Below are positions 1 through 18,677 of a stretch of DNA of 64,000 nt, in pieces; positions within the stretch are counted from its first letter, which is position 1; each line of letters starts with the position of its first letter. Made by a program: the position numbers and the translations under genes. The stretch comes from Calditrichia bacterium (lineage in GTDB: Bacteria > Calditrichota > Calditrichia > RBG-13-44-9 > J075): assembly GCA_020634975.1 (NCBI GenBank), contig JACKAQ010000001.1, forward strand, positions 297,808-361,807, given 5' to 3'. The notes beneath the pieces are model-generated. The model worked only from the letters and a program-made list of their open reading frames with translations, was not told the origin of the DNA and ran no database searches.

Positions 1-2172
1 AATGCTGCGCCAGTGGCGCTCGATGATGCATTCACCATTTTGGAAGATCACCCATCGCTGCTGAATGTTTTGGCGAACGACAGCGACCCGGATAACGACC
101 CGTTGAGCGTTTCCGTGGTAACCTCCCCGGCGCATGGCACTGTCAGCGTCGTCGCCGATACATCATTTTTATATACGCCTGCGGCAAATTTTTTTGGCGC
201 GGATTCGTTCGATTACGAAGTGAGCGATCCGGATAACGCAACAAATATCGCAACCGTTTACATCACGGTTCAACCAGCAAACGATCCGCCGGTGATTACA
301 ACACTACCCGACATAACTTTTGATGAAACAGAAACTTACACCATCGATTTGGATGATTTTGTGAGCGACGCCGATCACGGCGACAACGAGCTGAGCTGGT
401 CTGCAACTGTTCTCACAGCCCAAAAACAGGACGGGAAGCCAGTAACAAAATCGGAAGCGATGGAACCGGAAGTTGCAACCATTGAATTGGTGAATGTCGA
501 TACATCGGATTTGCAAATCAGCATCGATCCGGCAACACATATCGCCAGTTTTACGGGCAGTTCTGTAGGGCTGAACGTATTTACTGTTAGATTCGCAGTA
601 TCCGATCCGGTCGGGTTCAGCGATACGGACACCATTTCTGTGACGGTCACCGGTACGCTGTCGCCGCCGGTGCTGGTCAATCCCATCAGCGACGCGGTAT
701 TTAACGAAGACAGCGGACCGGTTGTGGTTGCTAACGATTTGAACACGGTGTTCAGCAACCCGGAAACGACGCCGCTCGTTTTCAGCGCGGTGTCATTAAA
801 CAGCAATATTCAGACAATTTTGCAGGGCGATCAGCTGTCGGTAGTGGCATCGCAAAATTACAATGGCAACGGCACTGTTATCGTTTCCGCCAATAACACG
901 ATCAGCACATCGGATACTTTTTTGGTGACTGTTTTATCGGTGAACGATCGTCCGGTGGTCAATTTGCCAAATGTCGCGTTTCCGGCGGATGATATTTACC
1001 AACTCGATCTCGACAATTTTGTGATTGATGTAGATAATCCGGACGCAGTGCTGCTTTGGACAGCGCAAGTACTCACCTCGACCACCGGAAATCCCAACGA
1101 TCTCACGATATCAATCGATCCGGTTTCACACGTTGCGGCATTTTCTGTAACATCAGGTAATTTTGGCACTTACAGCGCCAGATTTAACGTAATGGATCCC
1201 GGCGGTTTGAGCGCTGCGGATACTATCACTGTCAGCGTCACAGAATTTTTTGTGAACACTGCGCCGATGGTTGTCAACCCGGTTCCCGATGCGCAATTCC
1301 CGGAAGATGCATCGCCAAAACGGCTGCCGGCAAAACTGAGCGACGTATTTTTTGATCCCGATATCAACCAGACACTGACATTTTCGGTGAGTTCGAACCG
1401 TTCGGATATTGTGGCAATTGTGCTGGGCGACAGCGTGCAAATCAGCTATCCGCCCGATTTCAACGGGAGCGGCTCGGTGTTTATCACTGCAACGGACGAC
1501 AGCAGCGCTACCGCCAGCGATACGGTGCAGGTAACAATTCTGCCGGTCAACGATCCACCGCAAATTAGCGGATTGGCACAGCAACTCACTTTCCCGGCAA
1601 ACGCATTTGTGACGATCAATTTGTGGATCGCAGTGTCTGATCCCGAAACAGCAGATTCGCTTTTAAGCTATTCCTTTTCTTCAACGAATGATTCAGTGCT
1701 GTTCAGCTTTAACGCAGCAAATGGCGATTTAACACTTTCTGCACACCCGGCATTCGGCGGAACCGCGAATTTGTTCGTAACCGTTAGCGATTCGCAAAAC
1801 GCCTCCGCCAGCGATACGATCAGCGTTACGGTTCAACCGGTTTCGGGCATCGATGATGTTGTATCGATTCCTCAAAGTATTGCGTTACATCAAAATTATC
1901 CCAATCCATTTAACCCGGAAACTACCATAAAATTTCAGTTACCGGTAGCGACAACTGTTCGGTTGGTCATTTACAATATGCTCGGTCAGCAAGTTCGCGA
2001 ATTGCTGAATACGGCGTTGGCAGCCGGTTACCACAGTGCTCGCTGGAATGGATTTGATGATCGCGGCAATCCCGTAACCAGCGGCATTTATTTTTACCGG
2101 ATGGAAATCGCGGGGCTTAACGAAACTGTTACAGGTCAACACCTCATCCGTAAGATGATCCTGATGAAATAA
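1..2172 (+). CDS. T9SS-sorted adhesin with cadherin/Ig-like tandem repeats (C-terminal part; 5' end lies outside the window)
   Basis: The ORF is open from the window edge. It carries repeated ~95-aa modules of the VLANDSDPDNDPLSV...YTP..NFFGADSF.Y.V.D and VNDPP/VNDRP type. The C-terminus is NYPNPFNPETTIKFQLP...IYNMLGQQV...GYHSARWNG...GIYFYRM, a T9SS type-A C-terminal sorting domain. Confidence 0.8.
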   Translation, partial: NAAPVALDDAFTILEDHPSLLNVLANDSDPDNDPLSVSVVTSPAHGTVSVVADTSFLYTPAANFFGADSFDYEVSDPDNATNIATVYITVQPANDPPVITTLPDITFDETETYTIDLDDFVSDADHGDNELSWSATVLTAQKQDGKPVTKSEAMEPEVATIELVNVDTSDLQISIDPATHIASFTGSSVGLNVFTVRFAVSDPVGFSDTDTISVTVTGTLSPPVLVNPISDAVFNEDSGPVVVANDLNTVFSNPETTPLVFSAVSLNSNIQTILQGDQLSVVASQNYNGNGTVIVSANNTISTSDTFLVTVLSVNDRPVVNLPNVAFPADDIYQLDLDNFVIDVDNPDAVLLWTAQVLTSTTGNPNDLTISIDPVSHVAAFSVTSGNFGTYSARFNVMDPGGLSAADTITVSVTEFFVNTAPMVVNPVPDAQFPEDASPKRLPAKLSDVFFDPDINQTLTFSVSSNRSDIVAIVLGDSVQISYPPDFNGSGSVFITATDDSSATASDTVQVTILPVNDPPQISGLAQQLTFPANAFVTINLWIAVSDPETADSLLSYSFSSTNDSVLFSFNAANGDLTLSAHPAFGGTANLFVTVSDSQNASASDTISVTVQPVSGIDDVVSIPQSIALHQNYPNPFNPETTIKFQLPVATTVRLVIYNMLGQQVRELLNTALAAGYHSARWNGFDDRGNPVTSGIYFYRMEIAGLNETVTGQHLIRKMILMK

Positions 2173-2765
2173 ATTGAACCGACAAATTTCTGAGCCGGTG
2201 GTTTTAACAATCGCCGGCTTTTTATTCGGTTTGTTTGTGAAATTATGTTTATCGATGCGTTGCCAAATCACACATTTTGCACATTTTTTATTCACCTTCA
2301 ATCGCCCCAACAGAATTCATTTTCTCAAATTAAGAGTTTGTGCTGTCTGTCATTCCACCCCTAACCTCAATACCTACATTGTTGTAGATTAATATTTACA
2401 AAAACATAGTGGTTATTCTACTTAGATCGTGCAAATTCAACAATCGGGATATTTGGCAGGTTAAAAGGCATTAAACCGGAATTGGTTTACGATATCAACA
2501 GGCGTGTTGATTTGGAGTGGGTTTTTTGGTGAATTGTATGGGCAATAATCACATCACTACCATTACTACTAAAACTTTTCCGGTAACGCCGATTCAACAG
2601 TATTTGCAAAGGTGTTACAGTTTAACTAAAGATTCAAAAAAATGAATTTTCAGTCAATTTTTAAAATATTTGTCCGATAGATGAAATGATCGATAAAACC
2701 AGAGATTTCAAATGTTATTTAAAACTACAACCTATCTCATAAGATTAATCAACTGAAAGGACGCA

Positions 2766-5700
2766 ATGATGCAACGAGACAAAGGATTCGGTGTGATTCT
2801 CACGCTGTTTTTCCTGTTGCTAGTCGGGATGACTGCTGCTGCACAAACCACATATACGTGGAATGTGTTAGACGGCACATGGGATACCGCTACGAACTGG
2901 TCGCCCAACGGTATTCCCGGCACAACGGATAATGTCATCATTTCCAATGGTATTCTCCGGATGAACGGTGTTGATCGTACGATAAACAACATCAACATCT
3001 CGCAAGTATCCGGAGGGGATACGCGTATCGAAATGACCGGTAATTTGACGATCAACGGTACGATGACCTGGGATAATGGTTACATTTTAGGTGATACATT
3101 AACCACAGGCATCGACGATACGCTGACAATTGCAGTCGGTGCTGCGTTGGAAATGAACACCGGCAGCAAAAAGAATGCAGACAATATTGCCATTGTCAAC
3201 AACGGCGCCTTCAACTGGACAGCCGGAAACTTCGATTTAACCTACCTAACCTCAACCCGAGAAAGCTATTTCCTGAATAACAGCATCGTTAATATTACGA
3301 TGACCACAGACAGGAACTTGCTCGGCGGCGAATTCACAATTTTTGAGAACCTGGGCACAATCAATTTCTCAAATACGGCGGCATCGCCGATTACGCAGTT
3401 CAGCCTGTTTTTTAACGATCAGGGGACTGTTAATGTGAATGCAGGTACATTAGATGTTCGCGTTGGCGGGGTATTCACAAAAGCCACCCATAATCTTGCC
3501 AGTGGTGCAGTCATCTGGATCCGGCGTGCCGGTTTCACAGTGGACAGCCTTGTAACCAGCGGCTCCGGTGTTTCCTTAATCGAAGACGCAACAATTACAT
3601 TAAACAACGATTTGGTTACGCAAAGTGGGGCAACCACCTATTTGCAGTCATCCGAAATAACCGGCGCAGCCAATGTGGTTGTTGACGGTACGTTTCAATT
3701 TGACAGAACCCGGATCGGCGGTACCGGCGAAGTTTTGATTAACCCGGGCGGTTCGTTCGGTCTCGTTTCGCCGCAACCAAAAAATATCGCACGGTTGATT
3801 CGCAACAAAGGCACAATCACCTGGGATGACAGCTCGATAGTTGACCTCGAAGCCGGCGGCGATATCATCAACGATACAACCGGCACAATGCTGATTACCG
3901 GTGCCGGAACGTTTTCACTGGTTGGCGGAACAGGATTGTTCACCAACTACGGCACCGTCGTTAAAAACGGTGGCGGCAAAACGAACTGGAATGTTCCCTT
4001 TGTCAACAATGGTGAAATTTCATTATTAAGTGACTCTTTGAGATTTACCAAATCACTGACCAACAACGACAGCGGCGCCGTTTCCGGTGTCGGATTTCTG
4101 GATGTATCTGCCGGTGCAGGCTTCACCAATCGTGGCGCTTTCCATCCCGGCGATACGCTCGGTGCTTTAAATTTTGTGGGCAATTATGTAAACACAACAT
4201 CCACAACTGATCTGGATATCCAGATTGGCGGCAACACGCCGGGCGCATACGACCAATTGTTGGTCAACGGCAGCGCCCAACTGGGCGGCGTTCTGTCTCT
4301 GTCGCGGGTGAACGGGTTTCATCCCGTCCCGACGGATACGTTCCACGTTGTTAAATACGGCAGCCGTACCGGAACATTCAGCTCAGTTGATTTTCCCGGT
4401 CACACCTACAATCTGGCTTACACGGACAGCAGTGTGATGTTGACCGAAATCCAGCGCGACAACTTTGCACCGGTTGCTGTAGTAGACAGCATCACCACCG
4501 ATGAAGAAGTTGCCGCCAGCGTTAACGTGCTCGCCAACGACAGCGATGGCGATGCCGATCCGATGACCATCGCCAGCTTCACGCAGCCGACCGGCGGCGT
4601 TGTTGCCCAACTTGGCGATAGCTCATTTACCTACACGCCAAATGCAAATTTCTTCGGCGCAGACAGCTTTACCTACACAGTAGCTGACGGTTTCAACGGA
4701 AGCACCGTTGGTACGGTTCGCGTTACTGTAAACAGCATCAACGATAATCCGGTTATCACCGGTCTACCCGATCTTGTTTTTGACAACGATAGCACAGAAG
4801 TGCTGAATTTGGGAACCTACACCAACGATGTCGATCACGACAAAAATACGTTGGTCTGGGCAGCAACGGTGATTGACGCACAGCCGTTACCCACTTCAAA
4901 AGTGAGCAATCCGGCATTGTTAGTTGATGTTTCTCAACTGAATGTTGCGATTACGGATTCGATTGCAACCTTTACAGCCAATGCAGATAGCGGTGGCATT
5001 TACACGGTAGTGTTCTCCGTAACCGACCCGTTGACCGGCAGCGATACCGATACAATGGTGGTAACGCTGAACATCGGCAACTTCCCGCCAGTGGTTTCCG
5101 CACCTATTCCGGATTTCAATTTTGATGAAGATTCCGGTCCGGTGGTTGTCGAATCTGACCTGAACAATGTGTTCAGTGATGGCGACATCGGCACCATTTT
5201 CACATTTACCGCGGTATCCGAAAACCCGGATATCCAGGTTTCCGTGAATGGCAACGAGCTTTCAGTAACATCGACCGCAGATTTTGTCGGCTCCGGCAAC
5301 GTAATCGTCACCGCAGATGACGATGCGGATACCGTCAGCGATACATTTTTGGTCACTATCGATCCGGTCAATGATGCACCGGTTGCGGCAAATGTACCGG
5401 ATGTCAATTTCAACGAAGATGCATCCACAACATTAAATCTGAAACCGTATGGCAGCGACATCGACAACCTGGTTGGCGAACTGAGCTGGACCGCAACGGT
5501 TATCGCTGCACAGGCGCCGCCGAGCAAACGCGGCAGCAGCTACCAGATTACACCTGCGGATCTGACTGTAAACGTCACCGGCGACACGCTGGCGAATTTC
5601 TCCGCTACGGCAGACAGCGGCGGCGTGTTCACCGTTGTGTTTACCGTCAGCGATCCGGGCGCACTCAGCAGCAACGATACGGTTACCGTTACGGTTAACC

Positions 5701-8700
5701 AAACGGCTGATGCACCGTATGTCGCTTCCGCAATTGCAGATTTGGTGTATAATGAAGATGATGTTCCGGCGACCGCTTCGGCAAATCTGAACAACAATTT
5801 TGCCGATCCCGATCCGGGAACAACCCTCAATTTCTCGGCTGTTTCTGATAACGCGGACATCTCCGCAACCGTCAGCAACGACAGCCTGCTCATCAGCTCC
5901 ACACTCAATTATAGCGGCTCGGGAACCGTGGTCGTTACGGCATCCGATGGCGGATTGTCCGTCACCGATACGTTTGCCGTAACCATCAACGCCGTTAACG
6001 ATGCGCCGGTAATTGCCACCATTCCGGATGTGAATTTCACCGAAGATGGCAGCACCACCGTTGCGCTCAACGATTATGTTGCAGATGTGGACAACCTCGA
6101 TTCCGAAATTTCGTGGGCAGCCGAAGTGCTTTCCGCTTCCGGCACCGTCACCAAAAACGGCGTAACCCGCGAAGTGACCCCGGCGGATCTGACCGTCACC
6201 ATCGACGGCAGCAACGTGGCAACTTTCGCCGCGACCGCGGATTCCAACGGTGTGTTCACCGTGAAGTTTACCGCAACCGATCCGGGTTTGCTCAGCGATA
6301 CGGATACTGTTTCCGTCACCGTCAGCTCGGTGAACGACGCACCGTTCCGCACAGCAACCATCGCCGATGTTGCATTCAACGAAGATGCTGGTCCGGTAAC
6401 GGCTTCGGCAAATCTGAACAGCAATTTCAGCGATCCCGATCCGGGAACAACGCTGGTTTTCTCGGCGGTTTCGGATAATGCAAATATCACGGCAACCGTA
6501 TCCGGTAGCCAATTGACCGTCAACGCCGCAGCCGATTTCTTCGGCACCGGAAATGTTGTCGTCACCGCTTCGGACGGTTCGCTTGCCGCAACCGATACAT
6601 TCGCCGTTACCGTAAACGCGGTAAACGATGCGCCGGTAGTTGCCGGCATTCCGGATGTCGGTTTCTCCGAAAACGGTTCGCAAACGGTTTCTCTCGATGA
6701 TTATGTAACCGATGTGGACAACCTGCCAGCAGATATGAGCTGGGCTGCTGAAGTGCTCAGCGCTTCCGGCACTGTCACCAAAGGCGGCGTTTCCCGCGAA
6801 GTGACCCCGGCGGATCTGACCGTCACCATCGACGGCAGCAACGTGGCGACCTTCTCCGCGACCGCGGATTCCAACGGTGTGTTCACCGTGAAATTTACCG
6901 CAACCGACCCCGGCACACTCGCCGATACCGACACCATTACGGTAACGGTTACGCCGGTAAACAACGCGCCGGTTATTTCCGCCATTCCGGATGCTTCCTT
7001 CCCCGAAGATGGCAGCGAAACCGTTGCACTGAACGATTATGTTTCTGATGTGGACAACAGCGACTCAGAAATTACATGGGTTGCAGAAGTGCTCACCGCT
7101 TCCGGAACGGTAACCAAAAACGGATTTGTCCGTCAAGTGACCCCGGCAGATTTGAGCGTTACTATCGACGGTAACAATGTTGCGACATATTCCGCAACTG
7201 CGGATTCCAACGGTGTGTTCACCGTGAAATTTACCGCAACCGATCCGGGTCTGCTCAGCGATACGGACACCGTTACCGTAACCATCAGTTCGGTGAACGA
7301 TGCGCCGTTTGTTGTAACGCCGATCTCCGATGTAACCTTCAACGAAGATGAAGGTCCGGTAACCGCAACAACCACACTGAGCTCAAACTTCAGCGATCCC
7401 GATCCGGGCACAACTCTGATTTTCTCAGCAAGTTCAGACAACGTAAATATTACCGCCACCGTCAATGGCAATGCGCTGGACGTTAACGCCGCCGCAAATT
7501 TCTCCGGCACGGGCAACGTTTTGGTGACTGCTTCCGACGGTTCGCTGACGGTTACTGATACTGTGGCTGTCACTGTTAACGCTGTGAACGATGCGCCGGT
7601 GGTTGCCAATATTCCGGATGTCACTTTCTCCGAAGATGGCAGCACAACCGTTGCGCTGAACGATTACGTTACAGACGTAGATAATCTCGACTCCGAAATT
7701 TCGTGGGCAGCCGAAGTGCTTTCCGCTTCCGGCACCGTCACCAAAGGCGGCGTCACCCGCGAAGTTACGCCCGCAGATCTGACCGTCTCCATCGACGGTA
7801 ACAATGTGGCGACCCTTTCCGCGACCGCGGATTCCAACGGTGTGTTCACCGTGAAATTTACCGCAACCGATCCGGGTCTGCTCAGCGATACCGATACCAT
7901 CACTGTAACGGTTAATTCGGTGAACGATGCGCCATTTGTGGCATCTGCTATCGCCGATGTATCGTTTAACGAAGATGGTGGTCCGGTAACCGCAGCCGCA
8001 AACCTGAACAGCAACTTTGCTGATCCCGATCCGGGCACAACCCTGCTCTTCTCGGCAAGTTCGGATAACGCGAACATCTCTGCGTCGCTCTCCGGCAGCC
8101 AATTGAGCGTCAACGCCGCAGCCAACTTTTTTGGCGCCGGCAATGTGATTGTCACTGCTTCCGATGGTTCGCTTTCCGTGACCGATACATTTGCCGTCAC
8201 CGTTAGCGCAGTGAACGACGCACCGGTCGTTGCCAATATTCCGGATGTTTCATTTACGGAAGATGGCAGCACAACCGTTGCGCTGAACAATTATGTGAAC
8301 GACGTGGACAACCTCGATTCCGAAATTTCGTGGGCGGCTGAAGTGCTTTCCGCTTCCGGCACCGTCACCAAAAACGGCAGAACCCGGGCGATCACACCCG
8401 CAGACCTGACTGTTTCGATCGACGGCAGCAACGTGGCGACCTTCTCCGCGACCGCGGATTCCAACGGTGTGTTCACCGTGAAATTTACCGCAACCGACCC
8501 CGGGCTGCTCAGCGATACTGACACGATGACCGTGACCATCAGCTCGGTGAACGATGCACCGTTTGTGGCAGTTGCCATTCCCGATCTCGCGTTTAACGAA
8601 GATGAAGGCCCGGCAATTGCATCAGCAAACCTGAACAACAATTTCAGCGATCCCGATCCGGGAACGACCCTGTTGTATTCGGTCAGCTCGGATAACGCGA

Positions 8701-11700
8701 ACATCACCGCGGCGCTTTCCGGCAGTCAGTTGAACGTTAATGCTTCAACCGACTTCTCCGGCAGCGGCAACGTGATTGTCATCGCCTCAGACGGTTCGCT
8801 GACCGTTAGCGACACCTTTGCCGTCACCGTTAACGCGGTGAACGATGCACCGGTGGTTGCAACCATCCCGGATGTTTCCTTTTCCGAAGATGGCAGCACA
8901 ACCGTCGCACTGAACAATTATGTGAGTGACGTGGACAACCTCGATAGCGAAATTTCGTGGGCGGCTGAAGTGCTTTCCGCTTCCGGTACCGTCACCAAAG
9001 GCGGCGTTACCCGCGAAGTTACGCCCGCAGACCTGACCGTTTCGATAGACGGCGGCAACGTGGCAACCCTCTCTGCGACTGCGGATTCCAACGGTGTATT
9101 CACCGTGAAATTTACCGCAACCGATCCGGGTCTGCTCAGCGATACCGATACCGTCACTGTTACCGTCAGTTCGGTGAACGATGCGCCGTTTGTTGTAACG
9201 CCGATCTCCGATGTAACCTTCAACGAAGATGAAGGTCCGGTAACCGCAACAACCACACTGAGCTCAAACTTCAGCGATCCCGATCCGGGCACAACCCTGA
9301 ATTACACAGCAAGTTCGGATAACGCAAACATCACTGCCACCGTCACCGGCAGCCAGTTGACCGTCAACGCTTCCGCCAATTATTTCGGCACCGGAAACGT
9401 AGTCGTCACCGCCAGCGACGGCGCACTGAGCGTCACCGATACGTTTGCTGTCACCGTAAATGCAATCAACGATGCACCGGTAATTGCCACCATCCCGGAT
9501 GTTTCTTTCCCCGAAGATGGCAGCTCCACCGTTGCGCTCAACGATTATGTTGCAGACGTGGATAACCTCGATTCCGAAATCGGGTGGGTTGCTGAAGTGC
9601 TTTCCGCTTCCGGCACAGTCACCAAAAACGGCAGAACCCGGGCAATCACACCCGCAGACCTGACCGTAGGAATCGATGGCAACAACGTCGCGACTTTCTC
9701 CGCCTCTGCGGATTCCAACGGTGTGTTCACCGTTAAATTGACCGCAACTGATCCGGGTGACCTGTCAGATACGGACACCGTTACCGTGACCATCAGTTCG
9801 GTCAACGATGCGCCGTTTGTGACATCGGCTATCGGTGATGTATCTTTTGTTGAAGATTTGGGTCCGGTGGTTGCATCGGCGGATCTGAACAGCAACTTTG
9901 CCGATCCCGATCCGGGCACAACGTTGATCTTTACCGCAACCGCGGATGCCGGCATTCTGCCGAGCATCAGCAACGGTCAACTGACTGTAAACACGCAACT
10001 TAACTACACAGGTACCGGCAACGTGGTGGTTCGCGCCAGCGATGGCAGCGCATCCGTTACCGATACGTTCAGCGTAACCGTCAGCCCGGTCAACGATCCG
10101 CCGGCAATTGCTCCGGCAATGCCCGACATCTCCTTCCCAGAGGGTGAATCCACCACGCTGGCACTTAACGATTACGGCACCGACCCGGACAACCTGGACA
10201 GCGAACTGAGCTGGACAGCAACGGTGCTCTCCGCAACTTCCGGAACATTGACTGTTGATATCGACGGCAGCAACGTTGCCACCTTCTCCGCATCCGGTGC
10301 GGACAGCGGCGGCGTGTTCACCGTTAAATTCGACGTCAGCGACCCGAGCGCGCTCAGCGATACGGACACGATCACCGTGACCATCGCCAACGTGAACGAT
10401 GCACCGGTGATTGCCCCGGCGATCCCGGATATCAGCTTCCCGGAAGATGGCTCCACAACGCTCGGTCTGAACGAATATGTCAACGACATCGATAACCTCG
10501 ACAGCGAACTGAGCTGGACAGCCGAAGTGCTCTCAGCTGCCGGTACGGTTACCAAAAACGGCGTTACCCGCGAGATTACACCGTCGGATCTCACCGTTTC
10601 AATTGATGGAAACAACGTCGCATCGTTCGCCGCATCGGCGGATTCCAACGGCGTGTTCACCGTCAAATTTACCGTGACCGACCCGGGCGCACTCAGCGAT
10701 ACGGACACCATTCTGGTGACAGCAAACAGCGTCAACGACGCACCGGTGATTGCTCCGGCAATTCCGGATATCAGCTTCCCGGAAAACGGTTCGTCCACCC
10801 TTTCGCTGAACGATTACGTCACCGATATCGATCACAATGACAGCGAACTGAACTGGACAGCCGAAGTGCTCACCGGCAATGTTAACCAGTTGACCATCGC
10901 GATCGATGCCAATAATTCGGCGACTTTCTCCTCCTCGGCAGACAGCGGCGGCGTGTTCACTGTGAAGCTGACCGTAACCGACCCGGGCGATCTGTCCGAT
11001 ACGGACACGATTTCCGTGACCATCGCGGATGTGAACGACGCACCGGTGATTGCCCCGGCGATGCCGGATGTCAGCTTCCCCGAAGATGGCAGCACAACGG
11101 TCGCGCTGAATGATTATGTGAATGACATCGATAACCTCGACAGCGAACTGAGCTGGACAGCCGAAGTGCTCACTGCATCGGGAACGTTCACCAAAGACGG
11201 ACGCACCCGCGAAGTGACCCCGGCAGACCTCTCGGTCGCCATCGATGCGAACAATGTCGCAACCATCTCCGCAACCGCGGATTCCAACGGCGTGTTCACC
11301 GTGAAATTCACCGTAACCGATCCGGGCAACTTGTCCGATACGGATACGATCGCAGTGACCATCGCCAGCATCAACGATGCACCGGTGATCGCTCCGGCAA
11401 TCCCGGATGTCAGCTTCCCCGAAGATGGCAGCACCACCGTGGCGCTCAACGATTATGTTAGCGATGCGGATCACAGCGACGCTCAACTGACCTGGACAGC
11501 ACAGGTGCTCACCGCTACGGGCGGCAGCACAGCCGTGCAGATCGATCCGTCCGACCTGAGCGTAGCGATCGACGGAAACAACGTTGCCACCTTCTCCGCA
11601 ACAGCGGACAGCGGCGGCGTGTTCACCGTGAAATTCACCGTATCCGATCCGGGTAATTTGACCGATACGGATACCATCACCGTAACCGTGGAAAGTGTGA

Positions 11701-13523
11701 ACGACGCGCCGGTGGTTGTCAACCCGATTGCCAATGTTGCCTTCAACGAAGATGCAGCGCCGGTAACCGCGACAGCTAACCTCAGCGCTGTGTTCAGCGA
11801 TGCTGACCCGGGAACAACACTGGAAATTACCGCCACAACCAGCGATGCAAACGTGACTGCAACGATCTCGAACGATAGTTTGATCGTCGGCGCAGCTGCG
11901 AACTACTTCGGAAACGCACAGGTTTTTGTATCCGCAAGTGACGGCATTGCCAGCGTTACAGACACAGTAGGCGTAACCGTGGTTGGCGTGAACGACGCAC
12001 CGGAAATCACCCCGGCGATGCCGGATGTGGCATTCGGTGAAGACGAAAGCACAACGCTGAACCTCGATGATTACGTTGCCGACGTGGACAACGCAGCCAG
12101 CGCAATGCTCTGGACCGCTGAAGTGCTCACAGCAACCGGCGTTACCCGCGGCGTTTCTGTTGACCCGACCGATCTGGATGTGACGATCGATCCGGCAACC
12201 CGCGTGGCAACCTTCAGCGCAACTTCGGATACCAGCGGTATCTTCACCGTGAAGTTCACCGTCAGCGATCCGGGCAACCTCACCGATACGGATACAATTA
12301 CCGTAACCATCTCCGGTGAAAACGATCCGCCGGCAGTTGCCAATGCCATCGCCGATGTAACCTTCGACGAAGACAGCGGACCGGTTGTCGCAGCCGGAAA
12401 CCTGAATACAGTATTCAGCGATCCCGATCCGGGTACCGTGCTGACCTTCTTTGCAGCATCAAATGATCCGGATATTCAGGTATCGATTTCCAACGACAGC
12501 CTGTATGTTACCTCCTCGCTGAACTACTTCGGCGCTATCAGCGTGGTTGTAAGCGCAGACGACGGCACCTTTGCCGTGGATGATACGTTTGATGTCACCA
12601 TCAATCCGGTGAACGACGCACCGGTGCTGGTCAATCTGCCCGCAGCTATCGAGTTTGCGGAAGATGACAGCATCACATTCTTCCTCGATACGCTGGTCAC
12701 GGATGTGGACAACACGATTCAGGAAATTGTGTTCAGTCTCGCACCGTCTGATCCGGTTATTTCGGATAATGTGGATCTGGTTCTGGATCCGGTTGCCCGC
12801 ACCATCACACTGGTTCCGAATGAAAACTTCAACTACCTCGGTGGTCAGGTATATGTTACCGCAACAGATATCGGCGGATTGAGCGACAGCGACACGCTGG
12901 ACTTCAACATCCTGCCGGTAAACGATGCGCCCTACTTCCTGGTTGAATTTGAATCGGACACTGTCAAACAGGATTCCACCATCGGTGGCAATATCTGGGA
13001 AATCGTCGAAGATCCGGAAACAGAGGATGCACTTCTGACCTATACCTTCAGCGGCAATCCCGATTCGTTGCTCGTCACTTACGACGAAAATACCGGTGAT
13101 GTAACCATCACGCCGGTATCCGGATTTACCGGAACGGTTGCGCTGGAATTCACCGTCAGCGACGGCGAACTGAGTGCATCTCAAACACTTACGGTAGTTG
13201 TTGAACCGACGGTAGGTATTTTCGACGACCCGACGGCGCTGCCGACATCGTTCGACATCACCCAAAACTATCCGAACCCGTTCAACCCGAGCACCTCGCT
13301 CAAATTCCAGTTGCCGACCGCAACGGATGTGCGACTGGTGATTTATAACGTGCTCGGTCAGAAAGTCCGCACGCTGGCTAACCAGCAATTCCAGGCGGGC
13401 TATCACGAAGTGAAATGGGACGGTATGAACGATTACGGTGTGCGCGCTGCAACCGGCGTTTACATCTATCGCTTCGAAGCCGGCAAGTTCGTGAAAGTGA
13501 TGAAGATGACCTTGATGAAGTAA
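2766..13523 (+). CDS. Giant (3585 aa) T9SS-sorted repetitive adhesin with an N-terminal signal peptide and ~30 alternating A/B cadherin-like modules
   Basis: The start follows an AAAGGA ribosome-binding site. The signal peptide is MMQRDKGFGVILTLFFLLLVGMTAAAQ. About 560 aa of non-repetitive N-terminal region is followed by VNDAPV.. (module A, ~112 aa) and VNDAPF.. (module B, ~97 aa) repeats. It ends in the same T9SS CTD (NYPNPFNPSTSLKFQLP...GVYIYRFEAG). Confidence 0.85.
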   Translation: MMQRDKGFGVILTLFFLLLVGMTAAAQTTYTWNVLDGTWDTATNWSPNGIPGTTDNVIISNGILRMNGVDRTINNINISQVSGGDTRIEMTGNLTINGTMTWDNGYILGDTLTTGIDDTLTIAVGAALEMNTGSKKNADNIAIVNNGAFNWTAGNFDLTYLTSTRESYFLNNSIVNITMTTDRNLLGGEFTIFENLGTINFSNTAASPITQFSLFFNDQGTVNVNAGTLDVRVGGVFTKATHNLASGAVIWIRRAGFTVDSLVTSGSGVSLIEDATITLNNDLVTQSGATTYLQSSEITGAANVVVDGTFQFDRTRIGGTGEVLINPGGSFGLVSPQPKNIARLIRNKGTITWDDSSIVDLEAGGDIINDTTGTMLITGAGTFSLVGGTGLFTNYGTVVKNGGGKTNWNVPFVNNGEISLLSDSLRFTKSLTNNDSGAVSGVGFLDVSAGAGFTNRGAFHPGDTLGALNFVGNYVNTTSTTDLDIQIGGNTPGAYDQLLVNGSAQLGGVLSLSRVNGFHPVPTDTFHVVKYGSRTGTFSSVDFPGHTYNLAYTDSSVMLTEIQRDNFAPVAVVDSITTDEEVAASVNVLANDSDGDADPMTIASFTQPTGGVVAQLGDSSFTYTPNANFFGADSFTYTVADGFNGSTVGTVRVTVNSINDNPVITGLPDLVFDNDSTEVLNLGTYTNDVDHDKNTLVWAATVIDAQPLPTSKVSNPALLVDVSQLNVAITDSIATFTANADSGGIYTVVFSVTDPLTGSDTDTMVVTLNIGNFPPVVSAPIPDFNFDEDSGPVVVESDLNNVFSDGDIGTIFTFTAVSENPDIQVSVNGNELSVTSTADFVGSGNVIVTADDDADTVSDTFLVTIDPVNDAPVAANVPDVNFNEDASTTLNLKPYGSDIDNLVGELSWTATVIAAQAPPSKRGSSYQITPADLTVNVTGDTLANFSATADSGGVFTVVFTVSDPGALSSNDTVTVTVNQTADAPYVASAIADLVYNEDDVPATASANLNNNFADPDPGTTLNFSAVSDNADISATVSNDSLLISSTLNYSGSGTVVVTASDGGLSVTDTFAVTINAVNDAPVIATIPDVNFTEDGSTTVALNDYVADVDNLDSEISWAAEVLSASGTVTKNGVTREVTPADLTVTIDGSNVATFAATADSNGVFTVKFTATDPGLLSDTDTVSVTVSSVNDAPFRTATIADVAFNEDAGPVTASANLNSNFSDPDPGTTLVFSAVSDNANITATVSGSQLTVNAAADFFGTGNVVVTASDGSLAATDTFAVTVNAVNDAPVVAGIPDVGFSENGSQTVSLDDYVTDVDNLPADMSWAAEVLSASGTVTKGGVSREVTPADLTVTIDGSNVATFSATADSNGVFTVKFTATDPGTLADTDTITVTVTPVNNAPVISAIPDASFPEDGSETVALNDYVSDVDNSDSEITWVAEVLTASGTVTKNGFVRQVTPADLSVTIDGNNVATYSATADSNGVFTVKFTATDPGLLSDTDTVTVTISSVNDAPFVVTPISDVTFNEDEGPVTATTTLSSNFSDPDPGTTLIFSASSDNVNITATVNGNALDVNAAANFSGTGNVLVTASDGSLTVTDTVAVTVNAVNDAPVVANIPDVTFSEDGSTTVALNDYVTDVDNLDSEISWAAEVLSASGTVTKGGVTREVTPADLTVSIDGNNVATLSATADSNGVFTVKFTATDPGLLSDTDTITVTVNSVNDAPFVASAIADVSFNEDGGPVTAAANLNSNFADPDPGTTLLFSASSDNANISASLSGSQLSVNAAANFFGAGNVIVTASDGSLSVTDTFAVTVSAVNDAPVVANIPDVSFTEDGSTTVALNNYVNDVDNLDSEISWAAEVLSASGTVTKNGRTRAITPADLTVSIDGSNVATFSATADSNGVFTVKFTATDPGLLSDTDTMTVTISSVNDAPFVAVAIPDLAFNEDEGPAIASANLNNNFSDPDPGTTLLYSVSSDNANITAALSGSQLNVNASTDFSGSGNVIVIASDGSLTVSDTFAVTVNAVNDAPVVATIPDVSFSEDGSTTVALNNYVSDVDNLDSEISWAAEVLSASGTVTKGGVTREVTPADLTVSIDGGNVATLSATADSNGVFTVKFTATDPGLLSDTDTVTVTVSSVNDAPFVVTPISDVTFNEDEGPVTATTTLSSNFSDPDPGTTLNYTASSDNANITATVTGSQLTVNASANYFGTGNVVVTASDGALSVTDTFAVTVNAINDAPVIATIPDVSFPEDGSSTVALNDYVADVDNLDSEIGWVAEVLSASGTVTKNGRTRAITPADLTVGIDGNNVATFSASADSNGVFTVKLTATDPGDLSDTDTVTVTISSVNDAPFVTSAIGDVSFVEDLGPVVASADLNSNFADPDPGTTLIFTATADAGILPSISNGQLTVNTQLNYTGTGNVVVRASDGSASVTDTFSVTVSPVNDPPAIAPAMPDISFPEGESTTLALNDYGTDPDNLDSELSWTATVLSATSGTLTVDIDGSNVATFSASGADSGGVFTVKFDVSDPSALSDTDTITVTIANVNDAPVIAPAIPDISFPEDGSTTLGLNEYVNDIDNLDSELSWTAEVLSAAGTVTKNGVTREITPSDLTVSIDGNNVASFAASADSNGVFTVKFTVTDPGALSDTDTILVTANSVNDAPVIAPAIPDISFPENGSSTLSLNDYVTDIDHNDSELNWTAEVLTGNVNQLTIAIDANNSATFSSSADSGGVFTVKLTVTDPGDLSDTDTISVTIADVNDAPVIAPAMPDVSFPEDGSTTVALNDYVNDIDNLDSELSWTAEVLTASGTFTKDGRTREVTPADLSVAIDANNVATISATADSNGVFTVKFTVTDPGNLSDTDTIAVTIASINDAPVIAPAIPDVSFPEDGSTTVALNDYVSDADHSDAQLTWTAQVLTATGGSTAVQIDPSDLSVAIDGNNVATFSATADSGGVFTVKFTVSDPGNLTDTDTITVTVESVNDAPVVVNPIANVAFNEDAAPVTATANLSAVFSDADPGTTLEITATTSDANVTATISNDSLIVGAAANYFGNAQVFVSASDGIASVTDTVGVTVVGVNDAPEITPAMPDVAFGEDESTTLNLDDYVADVDNAASAMLWTAEVLTATGVTRGVSVDPTDLDVTIDPATRVATFSATSDTSGIFTVKFTVSDPGNLTDTDTITVTISGENDPPAVANAIADVTFDEDSGPVVAAGNLNTVFSDPDPGTVLTFFAASNDPDIQVSISNDSLYVTSSLNYFGAISVVVSADDGTFAVDDTFDVTINPVNDAPVLVNLPAAIEFAEDDSITFFLDTLVTDVDNTIQEIVFSLAPSDPVISDNVDLVLDPVARTITLVPNENFNYLGGQVYVTATDIGGLSDSDTLDFNILPVNDAPYFLVEFESDTVKQDSTIGGNIWEIVEDPETEDALLTYTFSGNPDSLLVTYDENTGDVTITPVSGFTGTVALEFTVSDGELSASQTLTVVVEPTVGIFDDPTALPTSFDITQNYPNPFNPSTSLKFQLPTATDVRLVIYNVLGQKVRTLANQQFQAGYHEVKWDGMNDYGVRAATGVYIYRFEAGKFVKVMKMTLMK
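4735..12930 (+). repeat. Intragenic tandem repeat array with a ~627-bp A+B unit; many copies are identical over more than 100 nt
   Basis: One example is the ~125-nt stretch ttcggtgaacgatgcgccgtttgttgtaacgccgatctccgatgtaacc..., which is exact at ~7289 and again at ~9166. The motif gattccgaaatttcgtgggc recurs at 6100, 7689, 8317 and 8940. Confidence 0.8.
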
Positions 13524-14108: not shown

Positions 14109-14165
14109 ATGTTTGTTATCAGGCAAGGATAAAGGATAAAGGATAAAGCATAAAATATTACGAAA

Positions 14166-15518: not shown

Positions 15519-15617
15519 TGGGATTCTCCGACTGTTATTAATTTTCGGCGATTTGTGATTTTTTGGCGATTTGTGAATTACGGCATTTCGTGAATTACGG
15601 CGATTCGTGAATTGCCA

Positions 15618-18440
15618 CTACGGATTTTTTATCCGAACCATCGCATAATTTGCGGTTTCCCGGACAATCGGGTCGGAACTGGTGAGCAGCGCTTCCACCT
15701 GTTCGTGAAAACGCGTTTCGTTCAATTCCGCGATCAGATACAGCGTGCAGGCCTTCAGCCACTCATCGGGTGATGCGAGCATTTTCTCGAAACACTCATC
15801 TTCGGTAAGTTCGCTGATGGCAAATTCGCGGCGGCTCATTTCGATCAGTGCGTCCAGCGAATTATTTTCGACAATCGGGATAATCAGCCGTTTTAGCGAG
15901 GTATCCAGCACATTGTCCAGAAATTCAACCGCGTTCGCGCGAATATCCTGCCGATTGCTGACCACACCCAAATAGGCGTTATACATATCGCGCGGGCGAT
16001 AGCGCAGCCCCAGCAGCCGGAAAATACGTTCCAGATTTGCGTCCAGTTTTTCCTCCAGCGCTTTGATGAGCAGCCGCCGCGCCTGCAACACCCGCGAGGC
16101 TGCAACGCTCTGTTCGCCATCGGCGATGGCGCTGTGCTGCTGCACATTCAGCACGGAAAGCGTATCCATGTAATCGTGCGTTTCGTTCAAAATAATCGAT
16201 TCGATGGTTTTTTCCGGGAATTTCAGCATCGGGAAATCGCGACGCATTTTATTGAGCGCCCGCAGCACTTCGTAGCGCATCAGCTGCTTATCGTGATCGA
16301 GCTGGTTCACCAGAATTTCCACTGATTCCTGCACACCAATCATGCTGATCACCCGTGGCAAATTCATCCGGATGCTCCGTTTTGTTTCGGGATGCGTCAG
16401 CCGCGCGCTCAATTCCGGCAACACCTGTTCGCCGAATTCCGCCAGCGCTTCGCGGGCAAATTTCCGGACAGATTTATCGCCGATGAGATCGATCAGTTTG
16501 GGAACAAACGCCTTTTCGTGCAAAATGCCGATACTGGTTGCCGCCATCTGGATCACTTCGACATGTTGATCCGCAATCAACTGCCGCAAAAACGGTTGCA
16601 GTGCCGGCAATCGCGCTTCACCAATTGCTTTGGCAACGCTCACGCGGATGTATGATTTCGCTTCGGGATCTGCCAGCGTTTCCGTTCCGGACAACATTTT
16701 TTCGATCAATTTCGGCAAATCAAACGCTTCGCGAATATCCGGATTTTCGCCGTATTCCCGAGCCGCAAACATCAGCGCTGCGGCGTTTACGCGGTATTCA
16801 TCCGACTGTAAAAAATTTTGCAGAACAGCAACTTTTTGTTTCCCCACAGCTTTTTGCACCAGATAACCAACCGCCTCCAAACGGACACTCTGGCTTTCAT
16901 CAGAAAGCAGTTGGTTTGCCGCTTCGGAAATATCGACCGTTTCGTATTTGCTCAACAAACGCAACGCCTGTTCCCGAATTTCTGCAGAATGGTGATCCAG
17001 CAATCGTTTCAAATGTTCGACAAATTGTTGATTTTTAACGTTTTCCAGCAATTTCAACGCATACAAAATTTGCCGCGAATTATCACCTTCGAGAATTTTC
17101 AACAGACTGTCGAACAGCGCCGCTTCTTCCGGGTTCACTGAAAAATCCTCCAAATCGATGGTTCGTTTTTCAATCGCCAGCCGGAACGCATTGATGTATT
17201 CGCGGCGTACCTGCCAAATCAGCGCACCCCAAATAACAATCAATCCGATGATCAGCAAACTGACCTGTCCGGTGGAAAATCCCAACCACACGTTAAAAAT
17301 AATGAGCATAACGCCGCCAACGCCGGTCGCCAGACTATCCACAAAAACATCGATAAACGATTTTGCCTGCGTTTTAACCGACGACGGCACCGGCAAATAC
17401 AGCAACTCGAAACTGGCTTTATTGATCGATTGTTTGAAACTGCCATCCGCTACTTTGATGAGCACCGCCGCCCACAATTCCGGGAAAATGAGGATGGAAA
17501 CCGCACCCACAAAAATCCCGAGCGGCAGCAACAGCAGCGAAGCGACCACACCCAATTTGCTCAACATTCGCCGGGTGAGAAACAGTTGGATGCCCAGCGA
17601 AACGATACTCAAATTAGAGAGCCAAACCCCGAAAAATGCCGTTCGTCCATCTTTGCTGCCGATGCTCGCTTCCACAACTGCGTTAAATTGGTAATCCACC
17701 AAATTCGCCACAATTACGCTGACACCGACAATCGATGCCAACACCGTTAAGTGGTTGGAATTTTTGAAGATAGTGAGCGGGTTTCCGGCAGACTTTTGCT
17801 GAAATTGCCGTTGCTGATAATTTTTTTCAACCCGTTGATCGGTGGGGCGTTCCCGCCAGACAATGCGCAAAATGAACAAACAAATGCTCACGAATCCGAA
17901 ACAAATCAGCAGCAGGTTTTCCGTGCCGATCACCAGCGCAAGGTTGGTTAAATATCCCCCGAAAATCCCACCGGAAATGGCACCCGCGCCGATGAAACTG
18001 AACAATCGCCGCGCCTCGCGAGCGTTAAAAACGTAGTTCGCCATCACCCAAAATTGCGATGTGGTGATCGCCCCGAAAATCGCCACCCACACATAAAACA
18101 CATACACAAACCAGCTTTGCTGAACATCAAATTTGAGCAACGCCCAAAACGCCAGCAAACAAACCAGCACGATAACCAGCGTGCCGCGAATCAATTTATT
18201 CAACCGCAACTGGTTCGAAAAACGGGTGTAATAAGTCGAGACAACCGCCGCCGCAATCGCCACCAGAATAAAAACATACGGCAACTGGCTGGCGTTGAAC
18301 CGGTCCAGAAACAGCGAGTTGCGCACCGGTTTGAGCATCAGCAACGATGAGATGATCAAGAAAACGTATGCAAACATCAGTAATGCACGTTTTAACTCAC
18401 CATCGCGAATATCGAACAATTTTTGGAACAGCGTTTTCAT
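15618..18440 (-). CDS. TLC/MFS-type (ATP/ADP-translocase-like) polytopic transporter domain fused to a C-terminal HEAT/PBS-lyase-like repeat domain
   Basis: About 12 TM helices are followed by ~500 aa of alpha-helical repeats (LRLLSKYE..., VRLEAVGYL...). The start is placed at MKTLFQKLF; the six-frame ORF extends to 18572. Confidence 0.65.
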   Translation of the reverse strand: MKTLFQKLFDIRDGELKRALLMFAYVFLIISSLLMLKPVRNSLFLDRFNASQLPYVFILVAIAAAVVSTYYTRFSNQLRLNKLIRGTLVIVLVCLLAFWALLKFDVQQSWFVYVFYVWVAIFGAITTSQFWVMANYVFNAREARRLFSFIGAGAISGGIFGGYLTNLALVIGTENLLLICFGFVSICLFILRIVWRERPTDQRVEKNYQQRQFQQKSAGNPLTIFKNSNHLTVLASIVGVSVIVANLVDYQFNAVVEASIGSKDGRTAFFGVWLSNLSIVSLGIQLFLTRRMLSKLGVVASLLLLPLGIFVGAVSILIFPELWAAVLIKVADGSFKQSINKASFELLYLPVPSSVKTQAKSFIDVFVDSLATGVGGVMLIIFNVWLGFSTGQVSLLIIGLIVIWGALIWQVRREYINAFRLAIEKRTIDLEDFSVNPEEAALFDSLLKILEGDNSRQILYALKLLENVKNQQFVEHLKRLLDHHSAEIREQALRLLSKYETVDISEAANQLLSDESQSVRLEAVGYLVQKAVGKQKVAVLQNFLQSDEYRVNAAALMFAAREYGENPDIREAFDLPKLIEKMLSGTETLADPEAKSYIRVSVAKAIGEARLPALQPFLRQLIADQHVEVIQMAATSIGILHEKAFVPKLIDLIGDKSVRKFAREALAEFGEQVLPELSARLTHPETKRSIRMNLPRVISMIGVQESVEILVNQLDHDKQLMRYEVLRALNKMRRDFPMLKFPEKTIESIILNETHDYMDTLSVLNVQQHSAIADGEQSVAASRVLQARRLLIKALEEKLDANLERIFRLLGLRYRPRDMYNAYLGVVSNRQDIRANAVEFLDNVLDTSLKRLIIPIVENNSLDALIEMSRREFAISELTEDECFEKMLASPDEWLKACTLYLIAELNETRFHEQVEALLTSSDPIVRETANYAMVRIKNP

Positions 18441-18677
18441 TTGATGCGCGATTTCCCGCTCTGTGGTCTGTTTTGGTGACTGACAAACATACGAAGCGCC
18501 ATTGAATATTGCAAGATGGATGAAGAAAGGATAAAAGATGAAAAATCCGGAATCCCGGATTACATCCTTCAATGCGCCTCTTTAAAACAGCTCAGGATGC
18601 AACGACTGGCAACACCGGCACTTTTTAAAAAAAATAAATTTGAATAATTCATCCGGGCACGGGTAATATTAGATGTC

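What the first reader, a model, noticed from the sequence alone, without database searches (positions are those of the whole stretch)
2766..13523. Giant T9SS adhesin with a recently homogenised ~627-bp tandem repeat array, plus an upstream paralog
The 10.7-kb gene contains ~15 A+B module pairs. Several are identical over more than 100 nt (copies at ~7289 and ~9166; the motif at 6100, 7689, 8317 and 8940), which implies ongoing concerted evolution and probable copy-number variation between strains. Modules A and B alternate strictly in the middle but switch to A-only near the C-terminus, suggesting two expansion events. The upstream gene (1-2172) is a paralog with older, diverged repeats and the same CTD. 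This is a likely phase- or length-variable surface fibre. It is also an assembly-collapse hotspot.
Basis: seen in the sequence. Interest (0 to 1): 0.55.

Follow-up and report, generated by a model that had tools for sequence, protein, structure and literature searches.

The report
Giant repeat-stalk surface fibre gene

Summary
The 10.7-kb ORF (2766-13523) and its 627-nt periodicity are real. The protein has a signal peptide, a 540-aa Antigen-43-like beta-helix head, 28 tandem-95/cadherin-like domains and a T9SS type A sorting domain. The repeat unit is a pair: a long domain (L, 112 aa) plus a short one (S, 97 aa). There are 10 L+S pairs, not about 15, plus one lone L and a five-domain L-only block that has its own 639-nt period.

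The array is not globally homogenised. Paralogous copies differ at dS 0.5-1.5, and each module still matches its positional counterpart in a sister species (dS 0.38). Only one stretch longer than 100 nt is identical (130 nt). That stretch and an 86-nt stretch look like gene-conversion tracts. Both occur only in this assembly: three conspecific assemblies and the sister species carry the unconverted sequence. They are therefore either very recent conversions or polishing artefacts.

Copy number is the same in three conspecific assemblies. It differs by exactly one 627-nt unit in the sister species, and a distant relative has only 4 pairs. Short-read contigs break inside the gene. I found no evidence for on/off phase variation. 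The upstream gene is a true collinear paralog.

The parts
1..2172 (+). C-terminal 723 codons of the upstream paralog. The full-length ortholog in L001 is 1503 aa: head, one tandem-95 domain, L-S-L-S, an end domain and a T9SS sorting domain.
   Evidence: NF012211 129.9 bits; TIGR04183 29.9 bits against a cutoff of 23; 38% identity, collinear with residues 566-1233 of the giant protein; heads 33% identical; sorting domains 50% identical.
2192..2220 (+). Terminator-like hairpin (12-bp stem followed by a T run) after the paralog's stop codon. It suggests the two genes are separate transcription units.
2766..13523 (+). Giant gene, 3585 aa plus stop codon.
   Evidence: Orthologs are intact in L001 (3794 aa) and L085 (3584 aa called).
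2766..2846 (+). Sec-type signal peptide: MMQRDK, a hydrophobic core, then AAA|Q.
   Evidence: Read from the sequence. The AlphaFold2 model has a helix at residues 5-22. No dedicated signal-peptide predictor was available.
2847..4463 (+). Head domain (residues 28-566), predicted to be a right-handed beta-helix.
   Evidence: No Pfam or NCBIfam model matches. AlphaFold2 pLDDT 87.6, all-beta. Top Foldseek PDB hits are Antigen 43 (E 8e-6), Hbp, Hap and pertactin. 5855 homologs have E<=1e-3, and many are head plus T9SS sorting domain only.
4464..4751 (+). Canonical tandem-95 / Big_9 domain (module 0).
4752..6008 (+). Two old, diverged L+S pairs (modules 1-4).
   Evidence: 42-68% amino-acid identity to the other copies.
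6009..10103 (+). Central array: L5 S6 L7 L8 S9 L10 S11 L12 S13 L14 S15 L16 S17. The period is 627 nt, and L7 (6636-6971) is a lone L.
   Evidence: The AlphaFold2 model of one L+S unit has pLDDT 92 and shows two beta-sandwiches. Cadherin, titin and adhesin-stalk folds are the top structural matches.
7285..7414 (+). Donor of the 130-nt conversion-like tract (end of L8 and start of S9).
9166..9295 (+). Acceptor of the 130-nt tract (end of L14 and start of S15). It is identical to the donor only in this assembly.
   Evidence: p<0.0005; about 30 mismatches to L085 cluster at 9194-9273. L085, L091, L087 and L001 are all unconverted.
6828..6913 (+). Acceptor of the 86-nt conversion-like tract, in the lone L7.
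   Evidence: p=0.0045; 20 mismatches to L085 at 6820-6871. L085, L091 and L001 are unconverted.
8418..8503 (+). Donor of the 86-nt tract, in L12.
10104..11711 (+). L-only block (modules 18-22) of 101, 113, 100, 113 and 109 aa: a short-L/long-L pair with a 639-nt period.
   Evidence: spacings 303, 339, 300, 339. (48-nt exact repeat at a 639-nt offset)..
11712..12623 (+). S23, L24 and S25: older, diverged copies.
12624..13217 (+). Two unique terminal Ig-like domains (modules 26 and 27). P0004 from a distant relative has the same two.
13218..13520 (+). Linker and T9SS type A C-terminal sorting domain. The model matches residues 3502-3580, which is nt 13269-13505.
   Evidence: TIGR04183 36.7 bits against a cutoff of 23. 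PF13860 36.6 against 27, and PF18962 20.8, below its cutoff of 27.

Best explanation
**What it is.** The gene encodes a cell-surface fibre of a Calditrichia bacterium.

- Shown by model matches and structure predictions: an N-terminal signal peptide; a roughly 540-aa right-handed beta-helix head of the autotransporter-passenger (Antigen 43) fold; 28 tandem beta-sandwich domains of the tandem-95 / bacterial cadherin-like family; and a type A T9SS C-terminal sorting domain.
- Inferred from what is established for T9SS type A cargo: the protein crosses the inner membrane through Sec, and the T9SS recognises its C-terminal domain and moves it across the outer membrane. That domain is then cut off and the new C-terminus is fixed to the cell surface. 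The stalk therefore projects the head outward, about 110-125 nm at 4-4.5 nm per domain. Each L+S unit adds about 9 nm.
- The conserved VNDAP linkers and the DxD and ED motifs resemble cadherin calcium sites. The rod is probably stiffened by calcium (inference).
- The head most likely mediates adhesion or cell-cell association (inference from fold only).

**How the array evolves.** It grew by duplication of two-domain units: a central L+S unit of 627 nt and a distal short-L/long-L unit of 639 nt. It now changes slowly. Purifying selection holds the protein sequence (dN/dS about 0.1), and synonymous sites have drifted. Only short identical stretches (65 nt or less between in-register neighbours) remain as substrates for recombination. 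This gives occasional short gene conversions (86-130 nt) and rare in-frame gain or loss of a whole unit. It is not rapid length switching.
For: **Architecture**
- NF012211: 528 bits, 25 stretches. TIGR04183: 36.7 bits against a cutoff of 23. Big_9, Cadherin_4 and Cadherin_5 are all far above their cutoffs.
- The L+S model has pLDDT 92 and shows two beta-sandwiches. Its top matches are cadherin-23, protocadherins, titin Ig, SraP and an RTX adhesin extender.
- The head model has pLDDT 87.6. Its top matches are Antigen 43, Hbp, Hap and pertactin.
- Head homologs occur as head plus sorting domain alone (637-785 aa), or with 4-7 tandem-95 repeats in between. The stalk is therefore an insertable spacer of variable length.
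- A distant relative keeps the two-gene tandem arrangement but has only 4 L+S pairs.

**Repeat dynamics**
- Paralog dS is 0.5-1.5 and dN 0.04-0.2.
- The sister species L001 (baseline dS 0.38) keeps positional orthologs for 27 of the 28 modules. It has exactly one extra 627-nt unit.
- Three conspecific assemblies are collinear, with the same unit count.
- Orthologous central modules are more diverged (87.7% identity, dS 0.46) than the head (90.4-90.7%, dS 0.385).
- Two conversion-like tracts account for about half of the 102 mismatches to strain L085.
- Other assemblies carry their own tracts: 65 nt in L001 (p=0.0015) and a 340-nt exact repeat in L002.
Against: - Secretion by T9SS is inferred from the sorting-domain match only. 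No T9SS machinery gene lies in the 64-kb window, and the rest of the genome could not be searched.
- The Pfam Por_Secre_tail score (20.8) is below its cutoff of 27.
- The head's similarity to Antigen 43 is at fold level only (TM about 0.30, 16% identity). It does not show adhesion. Beta-helices are also common in polysaccharide-degrading enzymes.
- Calcium binding and rod stiffness were not tested.
- The two conversion tracts occur only in this assembly, so they may be consensus or polishing artefacts.
- No expression data exist.
Confidence: 0.7

Rival explanations
1. The two long identical tracts (130 nt and 86 nt) are not biological. They are consensus or polishing errors in this assembly, where reads from one repeat copy were placed on another. 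On this reading the array itself is real but has been essentially static since the strains split.
For: - Both tracts are unique to the window. L085, L091, the short-read contig L087 (which covers only the 130-nt tract) and the sister species L001 carry the unconverted sequence.
- Tract lengths of 86-130 nt are in the range of short-read lengths.
- Outside the tracts, the central array differs from L085 at only about 0.3% of positions.
Against: - The reading frame is intact over 10.7 kb, which points to a high-quality consensus.
- The acceptor carries the window's own allele of the donor at 8450, so it copies the donor of this strain. This fits either explanation.
- Independent assemblies show comparable features: a 65-nt tract in L001 and a 340-nt exact repeat in L002.
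- The excess divergence of orthologous central modules is the long-term signature expected from conversion.
Confidence: 0.35
2. One reading: a contingency locus whose repeats are kept near-identical by frequent recombination, so that fibre length (or on/off state) varies rapidly between cells and strains.
For: - There is a one-unit difference from the sister species.
- Conversion-like tracts exist.
- Related genes range from 4 to 11 L+S pairs.
- All units are in frame, so any gain or loss gives a functional protein.
Against: - Adjacent units are only 72-87% identical, with dS of 0.5 or more.
- The longest in-register exact match between neighbouring units is 65 nt.
- Three conspecific assemblies at 98-99% identity have the same unit number.
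- Positional orthology survives a divergence of dS 0.38.
- There is no simple-sequence repeat and no promoter inversion among the assemblies.
Confidence: 0.1
3. The head is an enzyme, for example a polysaccharide lyase or hydrolase with a beta-helix fold. The protein would then be a surface-tethered degradative enzyme on a spacer, not an adhesin.
For: - The beta-helix fold is shared with PL6 alginate lyases and phage tailspikes, which appear lower in the Foldseek list.
- T9SS cargo in the FCB group are often carbohydrate-active enzymes with Por sorting domains (PMC3534657).
Against: - Lyase and tailspike hits have E of 0.77 or worse, against 8e-6 for Antigen 43.
- No catalytic Pfam or NCBIfam family matches the head.
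- One weak homolog is named 'T5SS/PEP-CTERM-associated repeat protein' by its source.
Confidence: 0.15

Closest known systems
Periscope Proteins / fibrillar adhesins (SasG, Aap, Rib, Sgo_0707; PMC8201768, PMC9210967)
   Same: Both have an N-terminal functional head, a rod of tandem folded domains and a C-terminal surface anchor. Stalk length differs between relatives by whole in-frame units. SasG also alternates two domain types (E and G5), like L and S here.
   Different: - Periscope stalks are defined by highly similar DNA repeats and by repeat number changing even between similar strains. Here repeats are 72-87% identical, and three strains have the same number.
- The anchor is a T9SS sorting domain in a diderm of the FCB group, not LPXTG.
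- The domain family is tandem-95/cadherin-like.
T9SS type A cargo of Bacteroidota (e.g. gingipains; SprB-type giant adhesins use type B)
   Same: A C-terminal domain matches TIGR04183 above its cutoff, there is an N-terminal signal peptide, and the protein is a large repetitive surface protein.
   Different: The organism is a Calditrichia bacterium. Neither the machinery nor surface attachment was shown here. The head is an autotransporter-like beta-helix.
Antigen 43 and other self-associating autotransporters (T5SS)
   Same: The head is predicted to be a right-handed beta-helix whose closest solved structures are Ag43, Hap and pertactin passengers.
   Different: There is no C-terminal beta-barrel translocator, and the C-terminus is a T9SS sorting domain instead. 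Identity is 16% and TM about 0.30. Self-association was not tested.
Tandem-95 repeat proteins (NF012211) / bacterial cadherin-like Big_9, Cadherin_4 and Cadherin_5 domains
   Same: 25 repeat matches total 528 bits. VNDAP linker motifs are present, and the predicted fold is a beta-sandwich of cadherin type.
   Different: Here two sub-types alternate: a 112-aa L with an extra hairpin (residues about 46-55 of the unit in the model) and a 97-aa S. They are duplicated as a pair.

Membership tests
T9SS type A cargo | C-terminal sorting domain matching TIGR04183 at or above the curated cutoff | tested here: met
   36.7 bits against a cutoff of 23, at residues 3502-3580. Pfam PF18962 scores 20.8, below its cutoff of 27, and PF13860 scores 36.6, above its cutoff of 27.
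T9SS type A cargo | N-terminal Sec signal peptide | tested here: inconclusive
   The sequence has a charged n-region, a hydrophobic core and an AAA|Q site. The model has a helix at residues 5-22. No signal-peptide predictor was available.
T9SS type A cargo | Genome encodes the T9SS core (PorK/L/M/N, Sov/SprA, PorU, PorV) | not testable with these tools
   None of the window ORFs scanned matches these. Sources name homologs from Calditrichota as T9SS sorting-domain proteins.
Tandem-95 repeat protein (NF012211) | Multiple tandem copies of the ~95-aa repeat above the model cutoff | tested here: met
   528.3 bits against a cutoff of 90, in 25 stretches.
Periscope Proteins | Tandem array of highly similar repeats at DNA level | tested here: not met
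   Central units are 72-87% identical, with dS 0.5-1.5. Only one exact stretch exceeds 100 nt.
Periscope Proteins | Repeat number varies between closely related strains | tested here: not met
   The number is the same in the window, L085 and L091, which are 98-99% identical. It varies by one unit in the sister species, and is 4 against 10-11 pairs in a distant relative.
Periscope Proteins | N-terminal functional domain projected by a rod, with a C-terminal surface anchor | tested here: inconclusive
   The domain order fits. Rod shape and anchoring are predictions only.
Cadherin superfamily (fold level) | Beta-sandwich EC-like domains with calcium-binding linker motifs | tested here: inconclusive
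   The fold matches cadherin-23 EC6-8 at E 3e-8, and Pfam Cadherin_4 and Cadherin_5 score above cutoff. VNDAP, DxD and ED motifs are visible. Calcium binding was not tested.
Type V (autotransporter) adhesins | C-terminal beta-barrel translocator domain | tested here: not met
   The C-terminus is a T9SS sorting domain, and no autotransporter barrel family matches. Only the head fold resembles a passenger domain.

The most novel reading that the evidence does not exclude
An autotransporter-type (Antigen 43-like) self-association head has been moved onto the T9SS pathway in Calditrichota. It is displayed on a cadherin-like stalk whose length is set by gain and loss of a two-domain (L+S) unit. The tandem pair of a short paralog (2 pairs) and a long one (10-11 pairs) would then present the same kind of head at two fixed heights above the cell surface. 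This would be a two-tier cell-cell or cell-particle attachment system.
Probability: 0.2. Interest if true: 0.45.

Novelty: new member of a known kind. Interest (0 to 1): 0.3.

Why it matters
The finding gives a clean, multi-genome example of how a giant bacterial surface-fibre gene grows and changes. Growth is by duplication of a two-domain unit. Synonymous divergence then removes the substrate for recombination, leaving rare in-frame unit changes and short conversion tracts.

It also carries a caution. Visible repeats and one long identical stretch do not make a fast-switching locus. Comparison with other assemblies showed stability among the three strains available.

In practice, the gene breaks short-read assemblies of this species. 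It will usually be missing or truncated in metagenome-assembled genomes.

Tried and rejected
- **Tandem Repeats Finder** found nothing in the gene, because its longest period is 500.
- **Rfam** gave no matches in the window.
- **Exact-protein look-up** of the giant protein found no record.
- **Word-indexed protein search with the head** returned only 3 weak hits. The exhaustive search was needed and found 5855.
- **First metagenome scan with the head** found nothing. The second, with the C-terminal 299 aa, was swamped by the generic QNYPNPFN sorting-domain motif and gave no close relative.
- **Literature searches** for T9SS in Calditrichota or Caldithrix returned nothing useful.
- **Is module L8 (6972-7307) a chimera of L001 modules 8 and 10?** A single unequal crossover would predict this. 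I rejected it because L8 is 80% identical or less to every L001 module.
- **Phase-variation signals.** There is no simple-sequence repeat beyond an A7 run. There is only one weak AT-rich inverted repeat, 17 nt and 82% complementary. No inversion appears among the assemblies.
- **Long antisense ORFs inside the repeats** (e.g. 5433-6683 on the minus strand) were treated as by-products of repeat codon composition and not pursued.
- **More conspecific contigs** did not add any that cover the conversion tracts.
Full report
**Observation.** The window holds an uninterrupted ORF at 2766-13523 (+), 3585 aa. Tandem Repeats Finder reported nothing in it because its longest period is 500. The repeat finder showed families of 6-16 copies with start-to-start spacings of 627 nt between about 5.0 and 10.1 kb. 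One spacing is 336 nt, and the spacings are 303/339/300/339 nt between 10.1 and 11.7 kb.

I cut the protein at the recurring VNDAP-type linkers. This gives 28 domains after residue 566:
- one canonical tandem-95 domain;
- 15 L-type domains (100-113 aa);
- 10 S-type domains (96-97 aa);
- two unique terminal domains.

L plus S is 209 aa, which is 627 nt. There are 10 L+S pairs, not about 15. A lone L (6636-6971) interrupts the alternation. The 'A-only' block (10104-11711) alternates short L (100/101 aa, lacking a hairpin) with long L (113 aa), at a 639-nt period. After it the order returns to S-L-S.

**Identity of the copies.** A search for all maximal exact repeats found only one longer than 100 nt: 130 nt at 7285-7414 and 9166-9295. 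The next are 86 nt (6828/8418), 65, 55 and 54 nt.

Codon-aligned comparisons give the following:

| Copies compared | Nucleotide identity | Amino-acid identity | dS | dN |
|---|---|---|---|---|
| Central L modules | 73-87% | 71-94% | 0.5-0.9 | 0.04-0.2 |
| Central S modules | not summarised | not summarised | 0.6-1.5 | not summarised |

The array as a whole is therefore old and under purifying selection. It is not freshly homogenised.

A permutation test on variable columns (the GENECONV idea) marks three tracts as longer than chance in the window:
- the 130-nt tract (no permutation reached it, p<0.0005);
- the 86-nt tract (p=0.0045);
- a 55-nt tract (p=0.0035).

**What the protein is.**
- NCBIfam gives tandem-95 repeat (NF012211) at 528 bits in 25 stretches. 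It also gives the T9SS type A sorting domain (TIGR04183) at 36.7 bits against a cutoff of 23, at residues 3502-3580.
- Pfam gives Big_9, Cadherin_4, Cadherin_5 and FlgD_ig above their cutoffs. Por_Secre_tail scores 20.8, below its cutoff of 27.
- An AlphaFold2 model of one L+S unit, using the gene's own repeats as the alignment, has pLDDT 92 and shows two beta-sandwiches. Its best PDB matches are cadherin and protocadherin EC domains, titin Ig domains, SraP and an RTX adhesin extender.
- The first 566 residues match no curated family.
- An exhaustive HMMER search found 5855 relatives of the head. The ones I scanned are T9SS cargo too. Some are head plus sorting domain alone (637-785 aa). Others have a few tandem-95 repeats in between.
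- The head model (pLDDT 87.6) is an all-beta solenoid. Its nearest solved structures are autotransporter passengers: Antigen 43 (E 8e-6), Hbp, Hap and pertactin. TM-scores are low, about 0.30.
- Residues 1-27 look like a Sec signal peptide.

**Relatives and copy number.** Scanning one genome per species with the head found one locus: a complete 6.28-Mb chromosome of a Calditrichia MAG, OZ245730.1 (L001).
- Its ortholog is 3794 aa. That is the window protein plus 209 aa, exactly one L+S unit.
- The two genomes are different species by this locus. The head is 90.4-90.7% identical at nucleotide level with dS 0.385, and the upstream paralog is 89.3% identical with dS 0.377.
- An all-against-all module matrix shows that positional orthology is kept. 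Window modules 0-7 pair with L001 modules 0-7, and window 9-27 pair with L001 11-29. Window L8 and L001 modules 8-10 have no counterpart above 80-85%.
- Modules therefore do not cluster by genome. Concerted evolution has not erased history since the split.
- Orthologous central modules are more diverged (87.7%, dS 0.46) than the head. This fits added change from conversion.

Looking up the neighbouring 450-aa protein and a head fragment brought in further assemblies of the same species.
- L085 (GCA_041391305.1, a 604-kb contig) is 98.84% identical to the window. L091 (GCA_041391265.1, a 238-kb contig with frameshifts) is 98.0% identical.
- Both are collinear across the array and have the same unit number as the window.
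- Ten short-read contigs end in or just beside the gene, at window-equivalent positions 9023, 9302, 9735, 10284, about 13000-13080 and 14137.
- A more distant relative (L002, GCA_025450675.1; head 43% identical) keeps the same tandem pair of genes. Its downstream gene has only 4 L+S pairs, and two of them share a 340-nt exact stretch.

**Conversion tracts.** Against L085 the window has 102 mismatches in 9.4 kb. About half lie in two clusters, 6820-6871 and 9194-9273. These are exactly the 86-nt and 130-nt exact-repeat tracts.
- At the 130-nt tract L085, L091, the short-read contig L087 and the sister species L001 share one sequence. At the 86-nt tract, which L087 does not reach, L085, L091 and L001 do.
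- Only the window carries sequence identical to another copy in the same gene.
- The simplest biological reading is two gene conversions in this strain: S9 into S15, and L12 into L7.
- The alternative is that reads were misplaced among repeats during consensus or polishing of this assembly. I cannot separate the two without reads. I put about 0.65 on real conversion.
- Independent assemblies carry their own, weaker signals: a 65-nt tract in L001 (p=0.0015) and the 340-nt repeat in L002.

**Phase variation.** All unit lengths are multiples of three, so recombination changes length, not frame.
- The promoter and 5' region have no simple-sequence repeat beyond an A7 run.
- They have only one weak AT-rich inverted repeat.
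- The intergenic region is collinear in L001 and L091.
- I find no support for on/off switching.

**Upstream gene.** The ORF at 1-2172 is the 3' part of a gene that is 1503 aa in L001.
- It is collinear with the giant gene: head (33% identity), a canonical tandem-95 domain, L-S-L-S, an end domain and a sorting domain. It is 38% identical over 687 aa.
- Its sorting domain is 50% identical to that of the giant gene.
- It has its own terminator-like hairpin at 2192-2220.
- It looks like the unexpanded form of the same design.

**Mechanism.**
- Shown: the domain content and order, the repeat structure, and the comparative pattern.
- Inferred from established T9SS biology (cargo with type A C-terminal domains are translocated and attached to the surface; 10.1101/2020.05.13.094771, PMC12704123): the protein is exported, its sorting domain is removed, and the fibre is fixed by its C-terminal end. 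The beta-helix head therefore sits at the tip of a rod about 110-125 nm long.
- The cadherin-like VNDAP, DxD and ED motifs suggest calcium-stiffened linkers.
- The head's function, adhesion or self-association, rests on fold similarity only.

**Comparison with known classes.** The design matches fibrillar adhesins and 'Periscope Proteins' (PMC8201768). This includes a two-domain alternation like SasG's E-G5. It fails two defining Periscope features that I tested: high DNA identity of the repeats, and repeat-number change between close strains. I file it as a T9SS-type tandem-95/cadherin-like fibrillar adhesin that works like a slow Periscope Protein, not as a member of that class.

**Verdict.** The feature is real and well supported, but it is an ordinary member of a known kind. 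The counts and the extent of identity were overstated. 'Recently homogenised' and 'phase-variable' are not supported. 'Assembly hotspot' is confirmed, as fragmentation rather than collapse.

Noticed in passing
window 9816-13523 vs L001 17678-21385: The 3' third of the gene (modules 17-27 plus the sorting domain) is much closer to the sister species (95-96% identity, dS 0.13-0.19) than the head, the upstream gene or the 313 nt downstream (89-91%, dS about 0.38). This suggests more recent exchange of this segment between lineages, or unusual synonymous constraint.
   Followed up: partly
window 11818-13101 vs 9558-11657 (against L085): Between conspecific strains the divergence is mosaic. There are 34 scattered, mostly third-position mismatches in 1.3 kb (2.6%), next to 3 mismatches in 2.1 kb (0.14%). 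Several short-read contigs also break at about 13000-13080. This looks like allelic recombination between strains.
   Followed up: partly
window 14125-14154: An intergenic 7-nt microsatellite (AAGGATA) is polymorphic. The window and L090 have 3 perfect copies. L083, L085, L087 and L089 have 2. The preceding T-run is 7 or 8 nt.
   Followed up: yes
window 15542-15613: About four imperfect 17-nt tandem repeats (TTTTCGGCGATTTGTGA-like) lie between two minus-strand genes. They are identical in all seven conspecific contigs checked, so they may be a conserved regulatory array.
   Followed up: partly
window 15618-18572 (-): A 984-aa protein combines a TLC ATP/ADP-transporter / MFS-like membrane domain with C-terminal HEAT repeats. 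This is an unusual fusion and I did not examine it further.
   Followed up: no
window 29333-30055, 31229-32773, 40022-40741: Two PspA-like genes and a flotillin (FloT-like) gene lie within 12 kb, which may be a membrane-stress cluster.
   Followed up: no
L002 8100-8439 and 8724-9063: The 1654-aa homolog in a distant Calditrichia relative has a 340-nt exact repeat at a 624-nt offset. This is an independent recent duplication or conversion of the same L+S unit, or a short-read assembly effect.
   Followed up: partly
window 2314-2330 / 2632-2648: A weak AT-rich inverted repeat (17 nt, 82% complementary, 301 nt apart) lies in the intergenic region upstream of the giant gene. L001 and L091 show no inversion, so it is probably chance.
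   Followed up: partly
window 5000-13400 (-): Many long antisense ORFs (up to 416 aa, e.g. 5433-6683) overlap the repeats. I take them to be by-products of the repeat codon composition, not genes.
   Followed up: no
L091 9735-20477: In GCA_041391265.1 the same gene is called as more than 15 fragments because of frameshifts. The public record therefore hides a single 10.7-kb gene.
   Followed up: yes
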